The translations under genes and the position numbers were made by a program. Of a stretch of 64,000 nucleotides of DNA, positions 58,050-64,000 are shown piece by piece. The notes beneath the pieces are model-generated. The model saw nothing but the letters and a program-made list of their open reading frames with translations, ran no database searches and was not told the DNA's origin. Position 1 is the first letter of the stretch; each line of letters opens with the position of its first letter. Source of the stretch: Gemmatimonadales bacterium (GTDB lineage Bacteria > Gemmatimonadota > Gemmatimonadetes > Gemmatimonadales > GWC2-71-9); assembly GCA_965249575.1 (NCBI GenBank), contig OZ252244.1:3160702-3224701 (forward strand). Reading direction: 5' to 3'.

Positions 58050-58750
58050 GGAGAGCCCGGCGCCACCGGTCATCCCGATCACTCGGAGAAACGAGGCTAG
58101 CATTGGCGAGTACGCTCGCTGTGCACGTGCTGGCCGTGGCCGTCATGGGTGGGAGCGCCGGGTCACGGCGGGCCGCACCCCCCGTGTACAGTGTGCAGCT
58201 CGTCGCGGCGCCCCGCCCCGAGCCGTCTGCCCGACGGGCACCAGAAGCGCTCCAGAGGCCCGCGGACCGAGCCGTGCCAGTGTCGCAGCCCCCGCCTCGG
58301 CGGCGTACCTCGGTTGCGGAGACGCCGCCCCCTCCCGTCCGGACTCCGGATCTCTCACGCGAGCCTGCACCGCGCACGACGCCCGCGGAGGAGCCAGCTC
58401 CGAATGAGGAACCCTCGACAGGCACTGACGTGGCCACGGTCAAGACGACCGGGGTCGATTTCCCGTATCCGGAATACCTGAGAAACCTGGTCGCCCAAGT
58501 GTATCGGCGCTGGCACCGGCCCGAGAGTGGCGTTCCGCTGCGCGCGGAGGTTTTCTTTCTCGTACACCGAGATGGGTCGGTGTCGAGTCTGCAATTCCTC
58601 AAGCGGTCCGGCAACTTTTCGTTCGACCTCGAGGCGCAGGGAGCCCTGGAGGCCGCGGGAAACGGCGGCGCGTTTGGGGAACTCCCTGACGGCTATGAAT
58701 CCGATGTCCTCCCGGTGAACTTCTTCTTCAATCCTGGCCCTCCGAGGTGA
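58046..58750 (+). CDS. TolA/TonB-like energy transducer
   Basis: TM with S-x4-H, Pro-rich linker and TonB_C-like SGN.SFD; lies between tolR and tolB. Confidence 0.75.
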   Translation: MRRARRHRSSRSLGETRLALASTLAVHVLAVAVMGGSAGSRRAAPPVYSVQLVAAPRPEPSARRAPEALQRPADRAVPVSQPPPRRRTSVAETPPPPVRTPDLSREPAPRTTPAEEPAPNEEPSTGTDVATVKTTGVDFPYPEYLRNLVAQVYRRWHRPESGVPLRAEVFFLVHRDGSVSSLQFLKRSGNFSFDLEAQGALEAAGNGGAFGELPDGYESDVLPVNFFFNPGPPR

Positions 58751-60147
58751 GGTGGAAGGCAGCTTGGTTTAGACGTGTGACCCTGCCTCCGTTGCTCGGT
58801 CTGGCGATCGCCACCGCGCCGGGCTGGCTCATCGCGCAGGATAGCGTGCCGCCCCTCGATCAGGAGGGCGTGCGGGTCGGCATCACGTACACGCCGGGAC
58901 TGCGGCCTGGGATGCTGGTTCTTGGCGGCACGCGGGATCAGCGCCTCGATTCCGTGCGTGCGATCATCCAGCGGGACCTCGACTACAGCGATCGGTTCGA
59001 AATCATTCGCCTCCCGGGTGGCGACAGCCTCACCGTTGGCCTGGCGGCTCCGGGCCCGGACTCGGGGATAGGTGCGGCCGGGTCGGCCACCACGGAAGCA
59101 GAGGCGACCTTCGTAAACTACCCCCTCTTTGGGGCCCTGGGTGCCGATTACGCCGTGAACGTGAGCGAGTCCCTTGACTCCGCACTTGAAGTGACGGTCT
59201 ACGACGTGCGGGGGGCCGGTATCCGTCGCGAGGTTCAGATTGGTCATATTCCCCCATCCGGTTCCGATTTCCGGATGCGGGTTCATCGAGCCAGTGACGA
59301 GGTCGTGCGAGCGGCAGCTGGCGCGGCCGGCATCGCCGCCACCCGCTTGCTCTTCATCCAGCGCGGTCGCGTGTACCGCATCGATTCGGACGGGGCTGAG
59401 CCGGCGGCATTGTCACCGGGCCGTGGCGGCGCGATGTCACCGACCTGGGCTCCCGACGGCCGGAAGGCCGTGTACATGGAGTTCTCGGAGGGCGCTGGCA
59501 GACTGTATGTCGTGGATGTGACGGCGGGAACGCGTCAGCTACTCGCGCCGACGGCGGACCAGCTCAACTTCAGTCCCGCCTTCGCCCCGGACGGGCAGAC
59601 GCTGGTCTTCGCCAGGGCCACGGGTGAGGGCACCGATCTGTATGCGTACAACCTCGCCCGGGACTGTTGCTTAGAGCGCTTGACGGTAGGCCGCTTTTCA
59701 GATAACCTAACCCCCACCCATAGTCCGGATGGACGCCGCATCGCGTTCGTATCGACCCGCGCGGGCGCGCCACAGGTTTATGTCATGGCCGCGGACGGGA
59801 CGGGGCAGGAGTTGTTTGCCCCGTTCGACTATGGTGTGACCGGAAGCTCGAACGCTCCGGAGTGGTCGCCGGACGGCCTGAACCTCGCGTTCCATCGGGA
59901 GGTGGCCGGTAGTCCGCAGGTGTTCGTAATGGACGTGGCCTCTCGGCGCGTCAAGCAGTTGACGAGTGCCGGGCGGAATGAAGACCCCACGTGGGCCCCG
60001 GACGGGCGCCACATCGCTTTCGTCTCTAGCCGGACGGGCTCGCGTCAGCTGTGGGTCATCGATCTCGATACGGGACGCGTACGGCAGCTCACGCGGCTTG
60101 GGCAGGCGCGGCTGCCCTCGTGGTCCCCCCGGATCTCGCAGCCCTAG
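58747..60147 (+). CDS. tolB: TolB-like beta-propeller protein
   Basis: DL..S.RF N-domain and repeated P.WSPDG..IAF (PD40) units. Confidence 0.85.
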   Translation: MRWKAAWFRRVTLPPLLGLAIATAPGWLIAQDSVPPLDQEGVRVGITYTPGLRPGMLVLGGTRDQRLDSVRAIIQRDLDYSDRFEIIRLPGGDSLTVGLAAPGPDSGIGAAGSATTEAEATFVNYPLFGALGADYAVNVSESLDSALEVTVYDVRGAGIRREVQIGHIPPSGSDFRMRVHRASDEVVRAAAGAAGIAATRLLFIQRGRVYRIDSDGAEPAALSPGRGGAMSPTWAPDGRKAVYMEFSEGAGRLYVVDVTAGTRQLLAPTADQLNFSPAFAPDGQTLVFARATGEGTDLYAYNLARDCCLERLTVGRFSDNLTPTHSPDGRRIAFVSTRAGAPQVYVMAADGTGQELFAPFDYGVTGSSNAPEWSPDGLNLAFHREVAGSPQVFVMDVASRRVKQLTSAGRNEDPTWAPDGRHIAFVSSRTGSRQLWVIDLDTGRVRQLTRLGQARLPSWSPRISQP

Positions 60148-60171
60148 AACCTAAGATTGGAGCGATCGACA

Positions 60172-60807
60172 ATGCGACTCAGCCTACCAATGACACTCGG
60201 TGTCGCCGTGATACTAGCGGCGGCGGCTTGCGGCGGCTCACCCCCTCCCGCACCACCACCGCAACCCAACGCTGACTCTATCGAGGCAGCGCGCCGAGCC
60301 CAGGCGAGGGCGGACTCGATTGCCCGGGAGCAGGCGCGCCGGGACAGCATTGCCCGCGCCGAGGCGGAGAGAGACCGCATCCGGCGGCAAGGAGAGGCCG
60401 ATTCGCTCGCGGCCCTTCGCAGTGAGACCGAGGCGGTCAGAGAAATGCTGGCCAGGAGAGTGAATTTCGATTTCGACCGGTCGAACATCCGGCCTGGTGA
60501 CGCGCAGGTGCTCGACCAAAAGCTCGCGATCCTGCAGGCGAATCCGGCGCTAAACATCGAGATCGCCGGACACTGTGATGAGCGCGGGTCCGACGAATAC
60601 AACCTGGCTCTCGGTAACCGGCGGGCGCTGTCTGCCAAGCAGTACCTGACGAGCCGGGGAATCGCCGACAACCGGGTCAGCACGCGGTCATTCGGCGAAG
60701 AGCGACCGATGGATCAGGGGAGTAATGAGGCGGCGTGGGAGCAGAACCGCCGAGATGAGTTCACCATTGCCGCCGGCGGGAACGTCCTGAAGCGTCCTGG
60801 GATGTGA
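60172..60807 (+). CDS. pal: Peptidoglycan-associated lipoprotein Pal
   Basis: Lipobox AAA-C, FDFDRS, GHCDERGSDEYNLALG.RRA, SFGEERP and NRR. Confidence 0.92.
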   Translation: MRLSLPMTLGVAVILAAAACGGSPPPAPPPQPNADSIEAARRAQARADSIAREQARRDSIARAEAERDRIRRQGEADSLAALRSETEAVREMLARRVNFDFDRSNIRPGDAQVLDQKLAILQANPALNIEIAGHCDERGSDEYNLALGNRRALSAKQYLTSRGIADNRVSTRSFGEERPMDQGSNEAAWEQNRRDEFTIAAGGNVLKRPGM

Positions 60808-61595
60808 CGCGGGTCTTGGTCGCCGCGAGCGTCGCGCTGAGTGCCTGTGCGCTCAAGGGCGATGTTCGGAGAGTTGAACGCGAGGTTCAGGAGTTGCGTG
60901 AGCAGACGGCCCGTGCCGATTCGGCACGGGCCGTCGAACTCGTTCGTATTCTCGCGCAGCTAGCGAGCATTCAATCCGTCGTTCTCGATTCCCTATCGTC
61001 CCACCAGCGCCGGTTCGCCTCCTTTCAAGGTGGTGTCGTCGGCGACCTGACCGAAGTACAACGGCAACTGGTACTGATCCAAGAACTCACCGGCCAGAGC
61101 CAGCAGCGTCTCTCCGAGTTTCGGAGGCAGCTCGAACGACGCGCCCAATCCAGGACGCCTCCTGCGACCCCAGTTCCCGCCGATTCGCTGTGGCCAGACG
61201 ATTCGCAGATGATCGAGGGGCCGGGACCCGAGGAGCTCTACGACGTTTCCCTCCAGCAGCTCCGGCGTGGGAGTCCGCAGACCGCGCGCCTGGGGTTCCA
61301 GACCCTCCTCCGGGAGTTCCCGTCGTACGACCGGGTGCCCGACGCGCGGTTCTTCGTCGGGGAGACGTGGGGTATCTCCAATCCAGACTCCGCCGCGGCC
61401 GCGTACGAACAGGTAGTGAGAGAGCACCCCGAATCCCCGCGGGCCCCGACGTCCCTGTACCGACTGGGGCTCCTGGCCGAGCAACTAGGTGATGGTGCCG
61501 CCGCCCGCATCTATTACCAGCGGGTACTGGCGGGCTATCCGAGATCCGACGAGGCGCCACTCGCGCGCAGCAAGCTCCAGGCATTGGGTCGCTGA
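60804..61595 (+). CDS. CpoB/YbgF-like coiled-coil plus TPR lipoprotein
   Basis: Lipobox LSA-C, N-terminal coiled coil and C-terminal TPRs; follows pal. Confidence 0.8.
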   Translation: MTRVLVAASVALSACALKGDVRRVEREVQELREQTARADSARAVELVRILAQLASIQSVVLDSLSSHQRRFASFQGGVVGDLTEVQRQLVLIQELTGQSQQRLSEFRRQLERRAQSRTPPATPVPADSLWPDDSQMIEGPGPEELYDVSLQQLRRGSPQTARLGFQTLLREFPSYDRVPDARFFVGETWGISNPDSAAAAYEQVVREHPESPRAPTSLYRLGLLAEQLGDGAAARIYYQRVLAGYPRSDEAPLARSKLQALGR

Positions 61596-61622
61596 GGGCT
61601 CGCCTCGCCCGCTAACCGTGGA

Positions 61623-64000
61623 ATGGCGAAAACGAAACCCACGGGCGAAATGCCCTTCTTGGATCACCTCGAAGAGCTCCGATGGAGAATCTTGTGGAGC
61701 CTGCTGGCGCTCATCGCGGGCTCGGCCATTGGCTTCTATCTTGTGCGGAATCACGATGTCATCGAGCTGCTGAAGCAACCGATCGTCGACTTCCTCCCTG
61801 ACGGCAAGCTCTTCGTCGTCAGACCAACAGACGCCTTCTTTCTCACCCTGAAGCTGGCCATAGCCGTGGGGGCGGTGCTCGCCTCCCCCATCATCGCCTG
61901 GCAGCTGTGGGTCTTTTTGTCGCCTGCGCTGTATGAGAAGGAGAAGCGCTACGTCGTGCCGCTCCTTGCGGGGGGCTTTGTGCTCTTCGTGGGCGGCGCG
62001 GTCATGGCGTATCTCTGGGTCCTGCCGGCCGCGCTCTGGTTTCTCTATGGATTCGGTTTCGGCGATCTCGAGTGGATTATCACCGCCGACCACTACTTTG
62101 GGTTCGCCATTCAAGTCATTCTCGGGTTCGGACTCGCCTTCCAACTGCCGCTGCTGATGATGCTCCTGGCACTGATCGGGCTGGTGACACCCGAGTTCCT
62201 GGGACGGAACCGGCGGTATGCGTTGCTCGTGGTAGCCGTTGGAGCCGCGCTGCTCACCCCGCCCGACGTCGTGTCCATGGCGATGATGATGGCGCCACTC
62301 GTCTTGTTGTACGAGATCGGGATCCTCCTGGCGAAGGGCGTGACGCGCCGGCGGAACCTTCCCTCGACCGGTGCGGTGCTCGTCCTCGTTGGAACCCTCG
62401 TGTTGGACGGAGGTGCCCTTCAGGCCCAACAGCGGGCTGGGGAGGGGCTGGCCCGGGATACCGTCCAAGGAGTGGGCGTGGGAGCCGGTGCGGACAGCCT
62501 GGAACCCCGGAGGAGCGGCGAACCCATCGACTCTGCTGCCGCCGGCCGGCTCGGCCTCCCCACGGGCCCGTCCCGGACGCTGCCCACCGCCGACTCGGTG
62601 ATGCGAGGACTCGTCGATCTACCGGGTTTCCGCGCCACGCGGTTCGCCGCCGACAGCCTCACCTTTCATGCCAAGACCCAAAGAATCGATCTTGCCGGAT
62701 CGGCCCTCGTCGAGCGAGAGGGCAGCATGCTCGAAGCGGCCACCGTGAGCTTTCTCCAGGCCGAATGCCGGATCGACGCGGCGGGAGAGCCAAGGCTCTT
62801 CGATGGGGGGACCGTGCTGATCGGTGAAGGCATGCAGTACGACACCTGTGAACGCCGCGGTATCGTGGCGAGAGCACTAACCAAGTTCGATCAGTCTGGT
62901 GTGGAGTGGTTTCTCAGGGGACACTTGGCGATCGACTCGGCCTCGAGCCGTATCTACGCGCGGCGCAGCTCGATCACGAGCAGCGATCTCCCGCTCCCCG
63001 ATTACCACTTTGCGGCCGGCCGAATCAAATGGGTGTCCAATACGGTCCTGGTCGCACGCCCCGCGGTCCTCTATGTGCGAGATGTTCCGATTCTGTGGCT
63101 GCCGTTCATTTTCCAAGATATGCGGCGCGGCCGGCGTTCGGGGATGCTCATCCCGCGCTTCGGGATCAACGACCTCGTTCGGCCGAATGCAGGCTATCAG
63201 CGGCACATTTCCAATATCGGCTACTATTTCGCGCTCAACGACTACGTCGACCTCCAGGCGTCGCTGGACTGGTTCTCCGGTGGATACGTGTCGCTTAACG
63301 GGCAACTGCGCTATCGATGGCTCGATCGCTTCATCTCAGGCGGGGTGTCGTTCTCCAGGATCTACGAGTCGGCGGTCGATGAAGCCCCGGGCAGCCGGTC
63401 TCTACGGCTTCAGCTCAGCCACCAGCAGTCATTCAACTCCCGGACCCGGATCAATGCCAGTATCGACTACGCCACCAGTGCGCGGGTCGTCGAGCGAAAC
63501 ACGGTGGATCCCTTTCTGGCGACGGCGAACCTCCGCAGCTCCGCGAACTTCAGCAAACAATTCGATTGGGGGTCCCTCTCGGTCGGCGGGAGTCGAACAC
63601 AGGATCTGACGAACGATTTGGTTACGCGGGCGTTTCCCAACGTCAATTTAACCCCGGTCCCCATCAATCTCTCTGAGGCTGTGACGTGGTCGCCCACCTT
63701 CAGCTTCGCGACGAACAAGACGTCCCACCAAGCAAGCGGCGTCATCGATCTCCCCCCGGTCGGTGGGGTACCGCAGCAGGACTCGCTGTTCTCGAGCAAC
63801 ACGAACACGACGATGCGACTGTCAACGCCGCTGCGAGTGGGACGGTGGAATTGGCCGAACGACTTCAACGTCACGCATATGGTGAACGATCGGCGGAGTA
63901 CCCTGACCGTCGAGGACCCGATGGACTCCACACTCTCGTCCGTTCGGTTCTACGGGGAAGACTTCTCGACCGCCGTCGACTGGAACACCTCGATCGGCCT
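61623..64000 (+). CDS. TatC-LptD-like fusion protein, 3' end beyond the window (absent from ORF track)
   Basis: Hand translation shows 792 codons with no stop. Residues 1-~240 are TatC (MPFLDHLEELRWR, FLSPALYEKE, FQLP, TPPD, LYEIGI). A signal-like linker follows, then an LptD-like region (ITSSDLPLPDYHF, ARPAVLYVRDVPILWLPF, RRSGMLIPRFG, NIGYYFALNDYVD). Confidence 0.85.
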   Translation, partial: MAKTKPTGEMPFLDHLEELRWRILWSLLALIAGSAIGFYLVRNHDVIELLKQPIVDFLPDGKLFVVRPTDAFFLTLKLAIAVGAVLASPIIAWQLWVFLSPALYEKEKRYVVPLLAGGFVLFVGGAVMAYLWVLPAALWFLYGFGFGDLEWIITADHYFGFAIQVILGFGLAFQLPLLMMLLALIGLVTPEFLGRNRRYALLVVAVGAALLTPPDVVSMAMMMAPLVLLYEIGILLAKGVTRRRNLPSTGAVLVLVGTLVLDGGALQAQQRAGEGLARDTVQGVGVGAGADSLEPRRSGEPIDSAAAGRLGLPTGPSRTLPTADSVMRGLVDLPGFRATRFAADSLTFHAKTQRIDLAGSALVEREGSMLEAATVSFLQAECRIDAAGEPRLFDGGTVLIGEGMQYDTCERRGIVARALTKFDQSGVEWFLRGHLAIDSASSRIYARRSSITSSDLPLPDYHFAAGRIKWVSNTVLVARPAVLYVRDVPILWLPFIFQDMRRGRRSGMLIPRFGINDLVRPNAGYQRHISNIGYYFALNDYVDLQASLDWFSGGYVSLNGQLRYRWLDRFISGGVSFSRIYESAVDEAPGSRSLRLQLSHQQSFNSRTRINASIDYATSARVVERNTVDPFLATANLRSSANFSKQFDWGSLSVGGSRTQDLTNDLVTRAFPNVNLTPVPINLSEAVTWSPTFSFATNKTSHQASGVIDLPPVGGVPQQDSLFSSNTNTTMRLSTPLRVGRWNWPNDFNVTHMVNDRRSTLTVEDPMDSTLSSVRFYGEDFSTAVDWNTSIG

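What the first reader, a model, noticed from the sequence alone, without database searches (positions are those of the whole stretch)
61623..64000. TatC fused in-frame to an LptD-like outer-membrane protein: candidate inner/outer-membrane polyprotein
Seen: one open frame runs from ATG 61623 to the window end (792 codons, read codon by codon). It begins as a complete six-TM TatC retaining HLEELR, F..PALY..E, FQLP and TPPD, and continues without a stop into an LptD-like jellyroll and beta-barrel start. The ORF track misses it because there is no stop in the window. Known: TatC is an inner-membrane Tat translocase core with a cytoplasmic C-terminus, while LptD is an outer-membrane barrel normally exported by Sec and folded by BAM. 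Inference: either the product is cleaved into TatC and LptD, fixing their stoichiometry, or it stays joined as an envelope-spanning tether. I know of no characterised example of this fusion.
Basis: partly seen in the sequence, partly recalled or inferred. Interest (0 to 1): 0.85.

Follow-up and report, generated by a model that had tools for sequence, protein, structure and literature searches.

The report
TatC–LptD fusion gene, likely self-splitting
In an uncultured family of Gemmatimonadota, the inner-membrane Tat translocase core (TatC) and the outer-membrane LPS inserter (LptD) are encoded as one 1176-residue protein that keeps LptD's signal peptide at the joint, so it is most likely cut into the two usual proteins during export.

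Summary
One frame runs from ATG 61623 past the window end and stops after 1176 codons in the genome. It encodes a complete TatC (residues 1-245) and a complete LptD_2-type LptD (jellyroll plus barrel). These are the genome's only TatC and only LptD.

It is not an assembly artefact. Contigs from three other studies bridge the joint with only substitutions and in-frame 3-nt indels. TatC sits in an open frame of at least 1000 aa in 109 of 139 genomes of the same family, at 43-61% identity where measured.

Other families of the phylum have tatC directly followed by a separate lptD, so the fusion is derived. It arose a second time in one genus of a sister family.

The joint keeps LptD's signal peptide: TatC's basic cluster, a hydrophobic core of about 14 residues, a Pro/Gly breaker, small residues at -3/-1, and an invariant Gln269. 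Split relatives start LptD with the same peptide.

Best reading: a polyprotein cut by signal peptidase I into a seven-helix TatC and mature LptD starting at Q269. Cleavage is inferred, not shown. Public databases label these proteins "TatC", and seven of my eight literature searches looked for a description of the fusion or of an analogue and found none.

The parts
61623..64000 (+). The tatC-lptD fusion ORF. The window holds codons 1-792. The ORF ends 1153 bases beyond the window, at 1176 codons (L001:1501-5031).
61623..62357 (+). TatC part, residues 1-245: six transmembrane helices, with the last helix ending in the basic cluster RRR.
   Evidence: Pfam and NCBIfam; model helices 12-245; Foldseek match to solved TatC at TM 0.76-0.83
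62337..62426 (+). Internal signal-peptide-like segment, residues 239-268: basic n-region shared with TatC's C-terminal end, an 11-residue hydrophobic core, Gly-Gly, and small residues at -3 and -1.
   Evidence: the same peptide begins the stand-alone LptD of split relatives
62340..62342 (+). In-frame GTG (Val240) just before the basic cluster, preceded by a weak AAGG. A possible but unproven internal start for LptD.
62424..62429 (+). Predicted signal peptidase I cleavage site, between Ala268 and Gln269.
   Evidence: Q269 is invariant in 40 of 40 aligned fusion proteins; position -1 is A in 34, G in 5 and S in 1
62427..62582 (+). Low-complexity linker, residues 269-320, at the N-terminus of mature LptD. 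Strain-level 3-nt insertions fall here.
   Evidence: pLDDT below 50 for 246-310; in-frame insertions after 62446 and 62450
62583..63122 (+). LptD N-terminal beta-jellyroll, roughly residues 321-500.
   Evidence: strands 339-498 in the model; Foldseek alignments to full-length LptD; weak LptA and LptD NCBIfam hits
63204..64000 (+). Start of the LptD beta-barrel. The barrel spans residues about 528-1173 and continues beyond the window.
58747..61595 (+). Upstream same-strand neighbours: a TolB-like PD40 protein (58747-60147), an OmpA/Pal-like protein (60157-60807) and a TPR protein in the position of CpoB/YbgF (60804-61595). The last one ends 27 nt before the fusion gene's ATG.

Best explanation
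This is a genuine, conserved gene fusion of tatC and lptD that works as a membrane polyprotein. SHOWN: there is one uninterrupted frame, and it holds the genome's only TatC and only LptD. The same fusion is seen across a whole family. The joint keeps LptD's signal peptide. INFERRED: TatC is inserted co-translationally with its C-terminus in the cytoplasm. The next segment is the former LptD signal peptide, and it uses TatC's own post-helix-6 arginines as its n-region. It enters the Sec translocon in the N-in/C-out orientation and starts export of the roughly 900-residue LptD part. Signal peptidase I then cuts between A268 and Q269. That releases mature LptD to the periplasmic chaperone/BAM route. 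TatC is left with a covalently attached seventh helix and a periplasmic C-terminus. TatC and LptD are therefore made 1:1 from one mRNA and one initiation event. The fusion most likely arose, and re-arose, by small changes that removed the stop or shifted the frame in an ancient, tightly packed tatC-lptD gene pair. It is tolerated because TatC's C-in topology is exactly what a following signal peptide needs. I found no sign that it is more than a tolerated, near-neutral fusion.
For: The frame and domains are established. This is the only TatC and the only LptD_2 in a 95.6%-complete single-contig genome, and there is no classical LptD. TatA, seven twin-arginine signal candidates above the curated cut-off, LptF/G, LptE and LpxC are all present, so both halves are needed. 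Two signal peptidase I genes are present. Conservation within family f1: of 141 genomes searched, 139 have TatC. It lies in an open frame of at least 1000 aa in 109, of 450-999 aa in 8 and of under 450 aa in 22. In the big protein database, 740 TatC proteins of 646-2058 aa pass E<=1e-3, and the best 120 all carry PF00902 plus PF19838. Of 32 loci where both genes were read whole, 17 are fused and 15 are split but adjacent. Joint, anchored on the alignment: position +1 is Q in 40 of 40; position -1 is A in 34, G in 5, S in 1; position -3 is L in 19, A in 17, V in 4; Pro or Gly lies within -4 to -8 in 40 of 40; the hydrophobic core has a median of 14 residues (range 10-20). Among 119 parsed database proteins, 111 have Q at +1. 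Stand-alone LptDs of split relatives begin with Met or Val followed by the same kind of peptide ending A then Q. In 5 of 34 fused genes there is no in-frame ATG, GTG or TTG between helix 6 and the hydrophobic core, so LptD there can only come from the long polypeptide. In this genome Q is the most enriched residue (4.5-fold; 66 of 474 sites) after the first small-x-small motif of signal-peptide-like N-termini, by a crude scan. Population variants keep the frame.
Against: Cleavage has not been observed. There are no proteomic or RNA data, and no RNA run was listed. No trained signal-peptide predictor was available; the site rests on rules and on homology to the split forms. My hydrophobic-core measure does not separate this segment from real TM helices: it gives 9-16 for TatC's own helices. 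The -1 and -3 counts were imposed by the search pattern, so only its +1 count is informative. An in-frame GTG at 62340 sits right before the basic cluster. In-frame start codons are present there in 29 of 34 fused genes, and SD-like cores precede such codons in 7 of 34 against 0.06 in control windows. The AlphaFold2 model gives the segment no structure (pLDDT about 30), which says nothing either way. The 22 'short' TatC frames in f1 show the fusion is dispensable.
Confidence: 0.7

Rival explanations
1. There are two products by internal initiation. LptD with its own signal peptide is translated mainly from an in-frame start inside the ORF (GTG 62340 in this genome). The long TatC-LptD read-through chain is a minor or tolerated by-product that is still cut by signal peptidase. 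This does not exclude the best explanation; both routes could operate.
For: GTG 62340 lies immediately before the basic cluster, with AAGG 5-9 nt upstream. In-frame starts occur between helix 6 and the hydrophobic core in 29 of 34 fused genes, and SD-like cores precede them in 7 of 34 against 0.06 in control windows. One sub-group (L005, L038, L049) has an ATG after the basic cluster, preceded by GAGG in two of the three. The independent g31 fusion keeps LptD's original Met codons in frame.
Against: 29 of 34 is no more than the 0.83 expected from equal-length windows elsewhere in tatC, because GTG-encoded Val is common in helices. All 7 SD-like cases include the GAGG formed by the conserved Tyr-Glu codons of helix 6. 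A start there would lie inside the helix. Five of 34 fused genes have no candidate start at all. With no stop codon, every TatC made must still carry LptD, so the polyprotein exists in any case.
Confidence: 0.15
2. The protein is an uncleaved envelope tether. It stays in one piece, with TatC in the inner membrane, a seventh TM anchor, a flexible linker of about 50 residues, and LptD in the outer membrane. This would physically link the Tat and Lpt machines across the periplasm.
For: The frame is continuous. The linker 269-320 is long, low in complexity and predicted disordered. Cleavage has not been demonstrated. My core-length measure does not exclude a TM anchor.
Against: The segment has every hallmark of a cleavable signal peptide: a helix breaker at -4 to -8 in 40 of 40, small residues at -3/-1, and an invariant +1 Gln. 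It is homologous to the N-terminal signal peptides of stand-alone LptDs in relatives. Fused and split states interchange within single genera, which is hard to reconcile with an essential tether. From general knowledge, barrel assembly by BAM of a chain still anchored in the inner membrane has no precedent.
Confidence: 0.07
3. It is an artefact or a decaying gene: a sequencing or assembly error removed tatC's stop, or the fused gene is a pseudogene.
For: Some metagenome-assembled relatives do show local frame problems. G441, for example, is out of frame beside a run of Gly codons. Many genomes of the family are fragmented assemblies.
Against: The joint is identical or in frame in contigs from three other studies. 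The same architecture is found in 109 of 139 family genomes at 43-61% identity in the 16 fused relatives compared, and in 120 of the 120 listed database proteins. Functional motifs are invariant in both halves. These are the only copies of two needed genes.
Confidence: 0.02

Closest known systems
The separate, adjacent tatC and lptD (LptD_2) genes of other Gemmatimonadota
   Same: The two proteins, their order and their strand are the same. LptD starts with the same signal peptide ending A then Q. tatA lies 5-11 kb downstream on the same strand in at least G000, G013, G020, G035 and G040.
   Different: In those genomes a stop codon ends TatC, often after an acidic tail, and LptD has its own ATG or GTG, usually in another frame or overlapping the stop. 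In this gene the stop, the tail and the start are gone, and TatC's basic cluster serves as the signal peptide's n-region.
Bradyrhizobium japonicum FbcH, the cytochrome b/c1 precursor made from one gene and split at an internal signal peptide (recalled from memory; not found in the held library)
   Same: In both, a polytopic inner-membrane protein ending in the cytoplasm is followed in one ORF by a signal-peptide-like segment and an exported partner. One gene gives two proteins by signal-peptidase-type cleavage.
   Different: FbcH's two products are subunits of one complex in the same membrane. Here the products belong to unrelated machines in different membranes. Cleavage is experimentally shown for FbcH (as recalled) and not for this protein.
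[quoted passage not shown]
   Same: These show that TatC tolerates fusion and extra helices, and that internal signal peptides after TM segments do function in bacteria.
   Different: TatC2 is a TatC-TatC fusion. The Rieske internal signal is a Tat signal that is not a point of separation into two proteins. The joint in this gene is not picked up by the twin-arginine signal model.
Proteobacterial LptD in the LptDE complex (PDB 4q35, 5iv9, 8h1r and others)
   Same: The fold is the same: an N-terminal jellyroll plus a very large barrel. An LptE homologue, LptF/G and LpxC are present.
   Different: Sequence identity is only 10-12%. The match is to Pfam LptD_2, not to LptD or LptD_N. The two near-invariant cysteines (C382, C409) both lie in the jellyroll. 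The precursor is fused to TatC.

Membership tests
TatC (PF00902 / TIGR00945) | Full-length match to the family model above the curated cut-off | tested here: met
   PF00902 positions 1-208 of 208, 213 bits against 25.1; TIGR00945 211.5 bits against 132.7
TatC (PF00902 / TIGR00945) | Six-helix fold of solved TatC | tested here: met
   Model helices 12-245; Foldseek 4b4a TM 0.81, 9dzz TM 0.83, rmsd 3.4
TatC (PF00902 / TIGR00945) | Conserved N-terminal H-L-E-E-L-R, P-A-L-Y..E and T-P-P-D motifs (their roles in signal binding are recalled, not tested) | tested here: met
   H15, L16, E17, E18, R20, P101, A102, L103, E107, T212, P213, P214 and D215 are invariant in 40 sequences
TatC (PF00902 / TIGR00945) | Works with TatA and twin-arginine substrates encoded in the same genome | tested here: met
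   One TatA-family gene about 5 kb downstream; seven TAT-signal matches above the cut-off. Transport itself is not testable here.
TatC (PF00902 / TIGR00945) | Stand-alone protein of about 250 residues ending in the cytoplasm | tested here: not met
   No stop after the TatC part; the ORF is 1176 codons
LptD (LptD_2, PF19838) | Match to the family model above the curated cut-off | tested here: met
   Residues 477-944, 139.4 bits against 22.5. Among 14 control genomes the model rings only in Bacteroides.
LptD (LptD_2, PF19838) | N-terminal beta-jellyroll joined to a very large C-terminal beta-barrel, as in solved LptD | tested here: met
   Model (mean pLDDT 68.8). The top 15 Foldseek hits are all LptD, E 6e-24 to 1e-18, TM about 0.5 on the target. 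The strand number could not be counted reliably.
LptD (classical, PF04453 + PF03968) | Match to the proteobacterial LptD and LptD_N models | tested here: not met
   0 matches in the genome for either model. Only weak NCBIfam LptD hits, far below cut-off.
LptD (LptD_2, PF19838) | Lpt partners and LPS synthesis present | tested here: met
   LptE 45 bits against 23; LptF/G; LpxC
LptD (LptD_2, PF19838) | Inserts LPS into the outer leaflet | not testable with these tools
   Needs genetics or biochemistry
Signal-peptidase-processed membrane polyprotein (FbcH-like) | One ORF encodes two proteins that are separate genes elsewhere | tested here: met
   15 of 32 relatives' loci and 13 of 14 loci from other families have separate adjacent genes
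Signal-peptidase-processed membrane polyprotein (FbcH-like) | Internal signal peptide with a type I cleavage site, in the right topology | tested here: met
   It follows the C-in end of TatC. n-, h- and c-regions are present, with small residues at -3/-1 and an invariant +1 Gln. It is homologous to the N-terminal signal peptides of split LptDs. Two signal peptidase I genes are present.
Signal-peptidase-processed membrane polyprotein (FbcH-like) | The precursor is actually cleaved into two stable products | not testable with these tools
   No proteomic or expression data. No RNA run was listed.

The most novel reading that the evidence does not exclude
The fusion is adaptive rather than neutral. 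By launching LptD export from the ribosome-translocon complex that has just inserted TatC, these bacteria would give an essential, very large outer-membrane barrel an obligatory co-translational export route and a fixed 1:1 output with TatC. The signal peptide that stays covalently on TatC as a seventh helix (or, in a fraction of molecules, the uncut chain) would modulate the Tat receptor complex or tether it to the Lpt bridge. That would be a new kind of physical or regulatory coupling between folded-protein export and LPS insertion.
Probability: 0.1. Interest if true: 0.85.

Novelty: new variant of a known kind. Interest (0 to 1): 0.6.

Why it matters
TatC and LptD are each well understood. 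A natural, family-wide fusion of an inner-membrane translocase core to an outer-membrane barrel has not, by my searches, been described. If the chain is cut as predicted, it would be a rare bacterial case of a membrane polyprotein split by signal peptidase at an internal signal peptide. It would also be the only one I know of whose products end up in different membranes. It would show that a roughly 900-residue outer-membrane barrel can be exported co-translationally behind a polytopic protein, and that TatC works with a leftover signal peptide as a seventh helix. There is a practical point too. Annotation pipelines call these 1170-residue proteins simply 'TatC', so LptD looks absent from more than a hundred Gemmatimonadota genomes. 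That would mislead any survey of LPS transport or envelope type in this phylum. The repeated switching between fused and split states also gives a natural experiment on how stop-codon loss in overlapping gene pairs creates new multi-domain membrane proteins.

Tried and rejected
TM7 as a TatB substitute. I asked whether fused lineages have fewer TatA/B-family genes. In the 32 genomes of known state the match counts were 1 in 12 and 2 in 5 of the fused genomes, and 1 in 12 and 2 or more in 3 of the split genomes. There is no correlation, so I dropped the idea. The tool warns that matches are not copy numbers.

The joint as a twin-arginine signal for cis export by Tat. The arginines belong to TatC: split TatCs have the same cluster after helix 6. 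Split LptDs have ordinary Sec-type signal peptides. The joint is not among the 7 TAT-signal matches in the genome. From general knowledge, a barrel protein must cross unfolded. Rejected.

Hydrophobic-core length as a discriminator between a signal peptide and a TM anchor. The same crude measure gives 9-16 for TatC's own helices, so it is inconclusive.

Shine-Dalgarno enrichment at an internal start. The apparent excess (7 of 34 against 0.06) comes from the GAGG made by conserved Tyr-Glu codons, so it is not evidence for a start.

Expression. No RNA holder was listed for the stretch, so nothing can be said about transcripts or start sites.

Glutaminyl cyclase. There is no PF05096 match in the genome. 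Other cyclase types were not searched.

Literature. Seven searches found no description of a TatC-LptD fusion or a bacterial analogue. The terms were: TatC+LptD+fusion (9 papers, listing only); Gemmatimonadetes+TatC; polyprotein/internal signal peptide/signal peptidase/cytochrome bc1; Bradyrhizobium/fbcH; LptD+Gemmatimonadota terms (where the 12 listed papers have 0 occurrences of LptD); and internal signal peptide/signal peptidase I/two proteins. I read passages only, in find mode, of PMC3827258, PMC13186574 and PMC5837995. Supplementary files were not opened, so supplements of Gemmatimonadota genomics papers could hold relevant tables that I did not see. The FbcH precedent is recalled, not read.

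Not done. I did not use complex prediction, the protein-atlas search, the search of protein representatives, a second structure job or a second fold library. I did not search for the fusion outside the phylum.

Limits of the counts. One search listed only 150 of 406 matches, so its distribution by family is partial. The '<450 aa' class mixes true splits with contig-cut genes: G046 is cut by its contig end, G441 is out of frame beside a Gly-codon run, and G090 has no lptD within about 5 kb. Only 8 of those 22 were looked at closely.
Full report
OBSERVATION. From ATG 61623 the + strand is open to the end of the window, 792 codons. The window lies in a single-contig genome of 3.86 Mb that is 95.6% complete. 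There the frame continues to a stop after 1176 codons. Pfam places a complete TatC at residues 14-225 (model positions 1-208 of 208, 213 bits) and LptD_2 (PF19838) at residues 477-944 (139 bits). NCBIfam agrees for tatC.

An AlphaFold2 model built on those 40 sequences has mean pLDDT 68.8 and pTM 0.47. It has helices at 12-245, an unstructured stretch of very low confidence at 246-310, then a beta-jellyroll and a very large barrel reaching residue 1173. Foldseek against the PDB puts 15 LptD chains first, among them full-length 8h1r, 4q35 and 5iv9 (E 6e-24 to 1e-18, TM about 0.5 on the target). It matches solved TatC at TM 0.76-0.83. GC3 is 0.75-0.82 in every segment of the frame, including the joint and the linker.

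NOT AN ARTEFACT. Contigs of public runs from four studies were laid on 61500-63000. One study is probably the source of the genome. Single contigs from two others span the whole stretch, and two overlapping contigs from the third cross the joint. Together they differ from the window by 20 substitutions and by two 3-nt insertions in the linker. I translated the substitutions: 12 are synonymous, 8 are non-synonymous, and none makes a stop. These are contigs, not raw reads, so rare variants cannot be excluded.

ONLY COPIES, AND BOTH ARE NEEDED. The genome has one TatC match and one LptD_2 match. It has no classical LptD and no LptD_N match. It has one TatA-family gene about 5 kb downstream and seven twin-arginine signal candidates above the curated cut-off. 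It also has LptF/G, LptE, LpxC and two signal peptidase I genes.

Upstream on the same strand lie a TolB-like protein, an OmpA/Pal-like protein and a TPR protein in the position of CpoB. That TPR protein ends 27 nt before the fusion gene's ATG. Downstream lie an unassigned 394-residue ORF, a 709-residue TPR protein, a polyprenyl synthase and tatA, with a PPIase on the other strand.

DISTRIBUTION. In 40 relatives from three families of one order, every genome has both halves. I read 32 loci in which both genes are whole. 17 are fused in one frame without a stop: 16 from family f1, including this genome, and G035 from f2. The other 15 are split but adjacent: 2 from f1, 6 from f3 and 7 from f2. 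The 16 fused relatives are 37-61% identical to the window's protein (43-61% within family f1).

At family level, 141 f1 genomes were searched and 139 have TatC. It sits in an open frame of at least 1000 aa in 109 of them, of 450-999 aa in 8 (mostly cut by contig ends) and of under 450 aa in 22. Two of the 109, G082 and G198, are unpublished genomes; without them the count is 107 of 137.

Across the phylum, 401 genomes were searched and 150 of 406 matches were listed. Among the listed rows, 45 frames of 900 aa or more were seen: 43 in f1 and 2 in genus g31 of f2. No listed row from any other family exceeded 420 aa.

In the 5.8-billion-protein collection, 740 TatC proteins of 646-2058 aa pass E<=1e-3. 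The best 120 all carry TatC plus LptD_2. Where a source names them, they are called TatC (one is named 'hypothetical protein'), and the NCBI names give the organism as Gemmatimonadota, Gemmatimonadetes or Gemmatimonadales MAGs. The 22 named genome records found are all uncultured Gemmatimonadota-type MAGs or 'Bacterium HR33'.

ORIGIN. In 13 of 14 loci taken from eight other families of the phylum, tatC is directly followed on the same strand by a separate lptD in another frame. One f4 locus had no lptD within about 5 kb. The gene pair is therefore ancient and the fusion is derived.

In G040 the TAG that ends tatC is followed at once by an in-frame GTG that starts LptD, so a single change would fuse them. 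The g31 fusion (G035, G243) has a different joint. It keeps TatC's long acidic tail and LptD's original Met codons in frame, so it arose independently. G035 also has a second, separate tatC.

Within f1, several genomes in otherwise fused genera are split and carry a normal LptD start: G132, G382, G165, G414 and G416. G441 is out of frame beside a run of Gly codons, and G046 is simply cut by its contig end. G074 has both a fused gene and a second tatC. The two states therefore interconvert.

THE JOINT. In every fused gene, helix 6 of TatC runs into a cluster of Arg/Lys. This is followed by a short uncharged hydrophobic run, a Pro/Gly-containing turn and a small-x-small motif followed by Gln.

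Anchored on the column of Q269 in the 40-sequence alignment, with no pattern imposed, the counts are as follows:
- Position +1 is Q in 40 of 40.
- Position -1 is A in 34, G in 5 and S in 1.
- Position -3 is L in 19, A in 17 and V in 4.
- Pro or Gly occurs within -4 to -8 in 40 of 40.
- The hydrophobic core has a median of 14 residues (range 10-20).

A pattern-based parse of 121 database proteins found a site in 119, with Q at +1 in 111. Positions -1 and -3 were fixed by the pattern there and carry no information.

Stand-alone LptDs of split relatives begin with Met or Val, one or two basic residues, the same kind of hydrophobic run, and A then Q. The basic cluster belongs to TatC, because split TatCs have it too, followed by an acidic tail. 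In the f1 fusion that tail and LptD's start are missing, and TatC's arginines double as the signal peptide's n-region.

The topology fits. TatC ends in the cytoplasm (established knowledge of the family), which is where a signal peptide's N-terminus must be.

In this genome, a crude scan of 520 ORFs with signal-peptide-like N-termini found Q to be the most enriched residue after the first small-x-small motif: 66 of 474 sites, 4.5 times background. The joint therefore looks like this organism's ordinary signal peptidase I context. [quoted passage not shown] In find mode it showed no occurrence of 'Gemmatimonadetes' in its text (abstract and passages).

MECHANISM. What is shown: one frame, the only copies of both genes, a conserved signal-peptide-like joint, and the presence of signal peptidase I. 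What is inferred: TatC is inserted co-translationally, the former LptD signal peptide re-enters the Sec translocon and starts export of the LptD part, and signal peptidase I cuts between A268 and Q269. This yields mature LptD and a TatC that keeps the signal peptide as a seventh helix with a periplasmic C-terminus. The two proteins are then made 1:1. I put this at about 0.7.

RIVALS.

(a) Internal initiation. GTG 62340 sits just before the basic cluster, with a weak AAGG upstream. In-frame starts occur in the equivalent place in 29 of 34 fused genes, but control windows inside tatC give 0.83, so there is no enrichment. Five of the 34 have none at all. SD-like cores are more frequent than in controls (7 of 34 against 0.06), but in all seven the motif includes the GAGG of the conserved Tyr-Glu codons of helix 6. 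One sub-group has an ATG after the basic cluster that could serve as a start. This route may add LptD in some genomes. It cannot remove the polyprotein, because tatC has no stop.

(b) Uncleaved tether. This is not excluded by any experiment, and my core-length measure is not discriminating. It is disfavoured by the cleavage-site conservation, by homology to cleaved N-terminal signal peptides, and by the free interchange of fused and split states.

(c) Artefact or pseudogene. This is effectively excluded.

COMPARISON WITH WHAT IS KNOWN. Each half is an ordinary member of its family: TatC, and the LptD_2 form of LptD. Among the 14 control genomes, the LptD_2 model rings only in Bacteroides. The architecture is what is unusual. 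The nearest mechanistic precedent I know is the Bradyrhizobium japonicum cytochrome b/c1 precursor FbcH, which is split at an internal signal peptide. This is recalled; I could not find it in the held library. A recent Tat review mentions a TatC-TatC fusion in Halobacterium and an internal, uncleaved Tat signal peptide in the Streptomyces Rieske protein (passages). The 2013 survey of TatC diversity had one Gemmatimonadetes genome and contains no occurrence of 'fusion' or 'fused' (find mode). None of my searches found a description of a TatC-LptD fusion.

NOVELTY AND SCORE. This is a new variant of known kinds. The sequences are public but labelled only as TatC. Specialists in envelope biogenesis would find an obligatory TatC-LptD precursor surprising and easy to test. 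The most economical reading, however, is a tolerated fusion of neighbouring genes that changes little once the chain is cut. Interest is 0.6.

Noticed in passing
whole genome G000 (e.g. window 58747-60147, the TolB-like protein, whose signal peptide ends L-I-A followed by Q-D): Gln is the most enriched residue (4.5-fold; 66 of 474 sites) right after the first small-x-small motif of signal-peptide-like N-termini, by a crude script. This hints at a 'Q-rule' like that of Bacteroidetes in a Gemmatimonadota genome. No PF05096 glutaminyl cyclase was found. Other cyclase types were not searched.
   Followed up: partly
window 58747-64000 and G000:C1:3225700-3232500 (L058): There is a conserved envelope cluster: tolB-like, pal-like, TPR (CpoB position), tatC-lptD, an unassigned 394-aa ORF, a 709-aa TPR protein, a polyprenyl synthase and tatA, with a PPIase on the opposite strand. 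In relatives, tatA also lies 5-11 kb downstream of tatC/lptD on the same strand (e.g. G013, G020, G035, G040).
   Followed up: partly
window 62446-62450: Strains in other studies carry 3-nt insertions (GCT after 62446, or GCC after 62450) in the low-complexity linker just after the predicted cleavage site. The linker tolerates length change, but always in frame.
   Followed up: yes
L077 (G441), L028 and L073 (G035, G243), L082 and L083 (G074): G441's gene is out of frame beside a run of Gly codons in the signal-peptide region, which may be an assembly error or decay. Genus g31 of a sister family has an independent fusion that keeps TatC's acidic tail. G035 and G074 each carry a second, stand-alone tatC as well as the fused one.
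   Followed up: partly
window 61485-62468, minus strand: A 327-aa open frame lies antisense to tatC. Its translation is rich in Glu, His, Gln, Arg and Pro. It looks like one of the many chance ORFs of a GC-rich genome rather than a gene. I did not examine it further.
   Followed up: no
public databases: Annotation pipelines name the 1150-1200-residue fusion proteins only 'twin-arginine translocase subunit TatC' or 'Tat protein translocase TatC'. As a result LptD is effectively unannotated in these genomes.
   Followed up: yes
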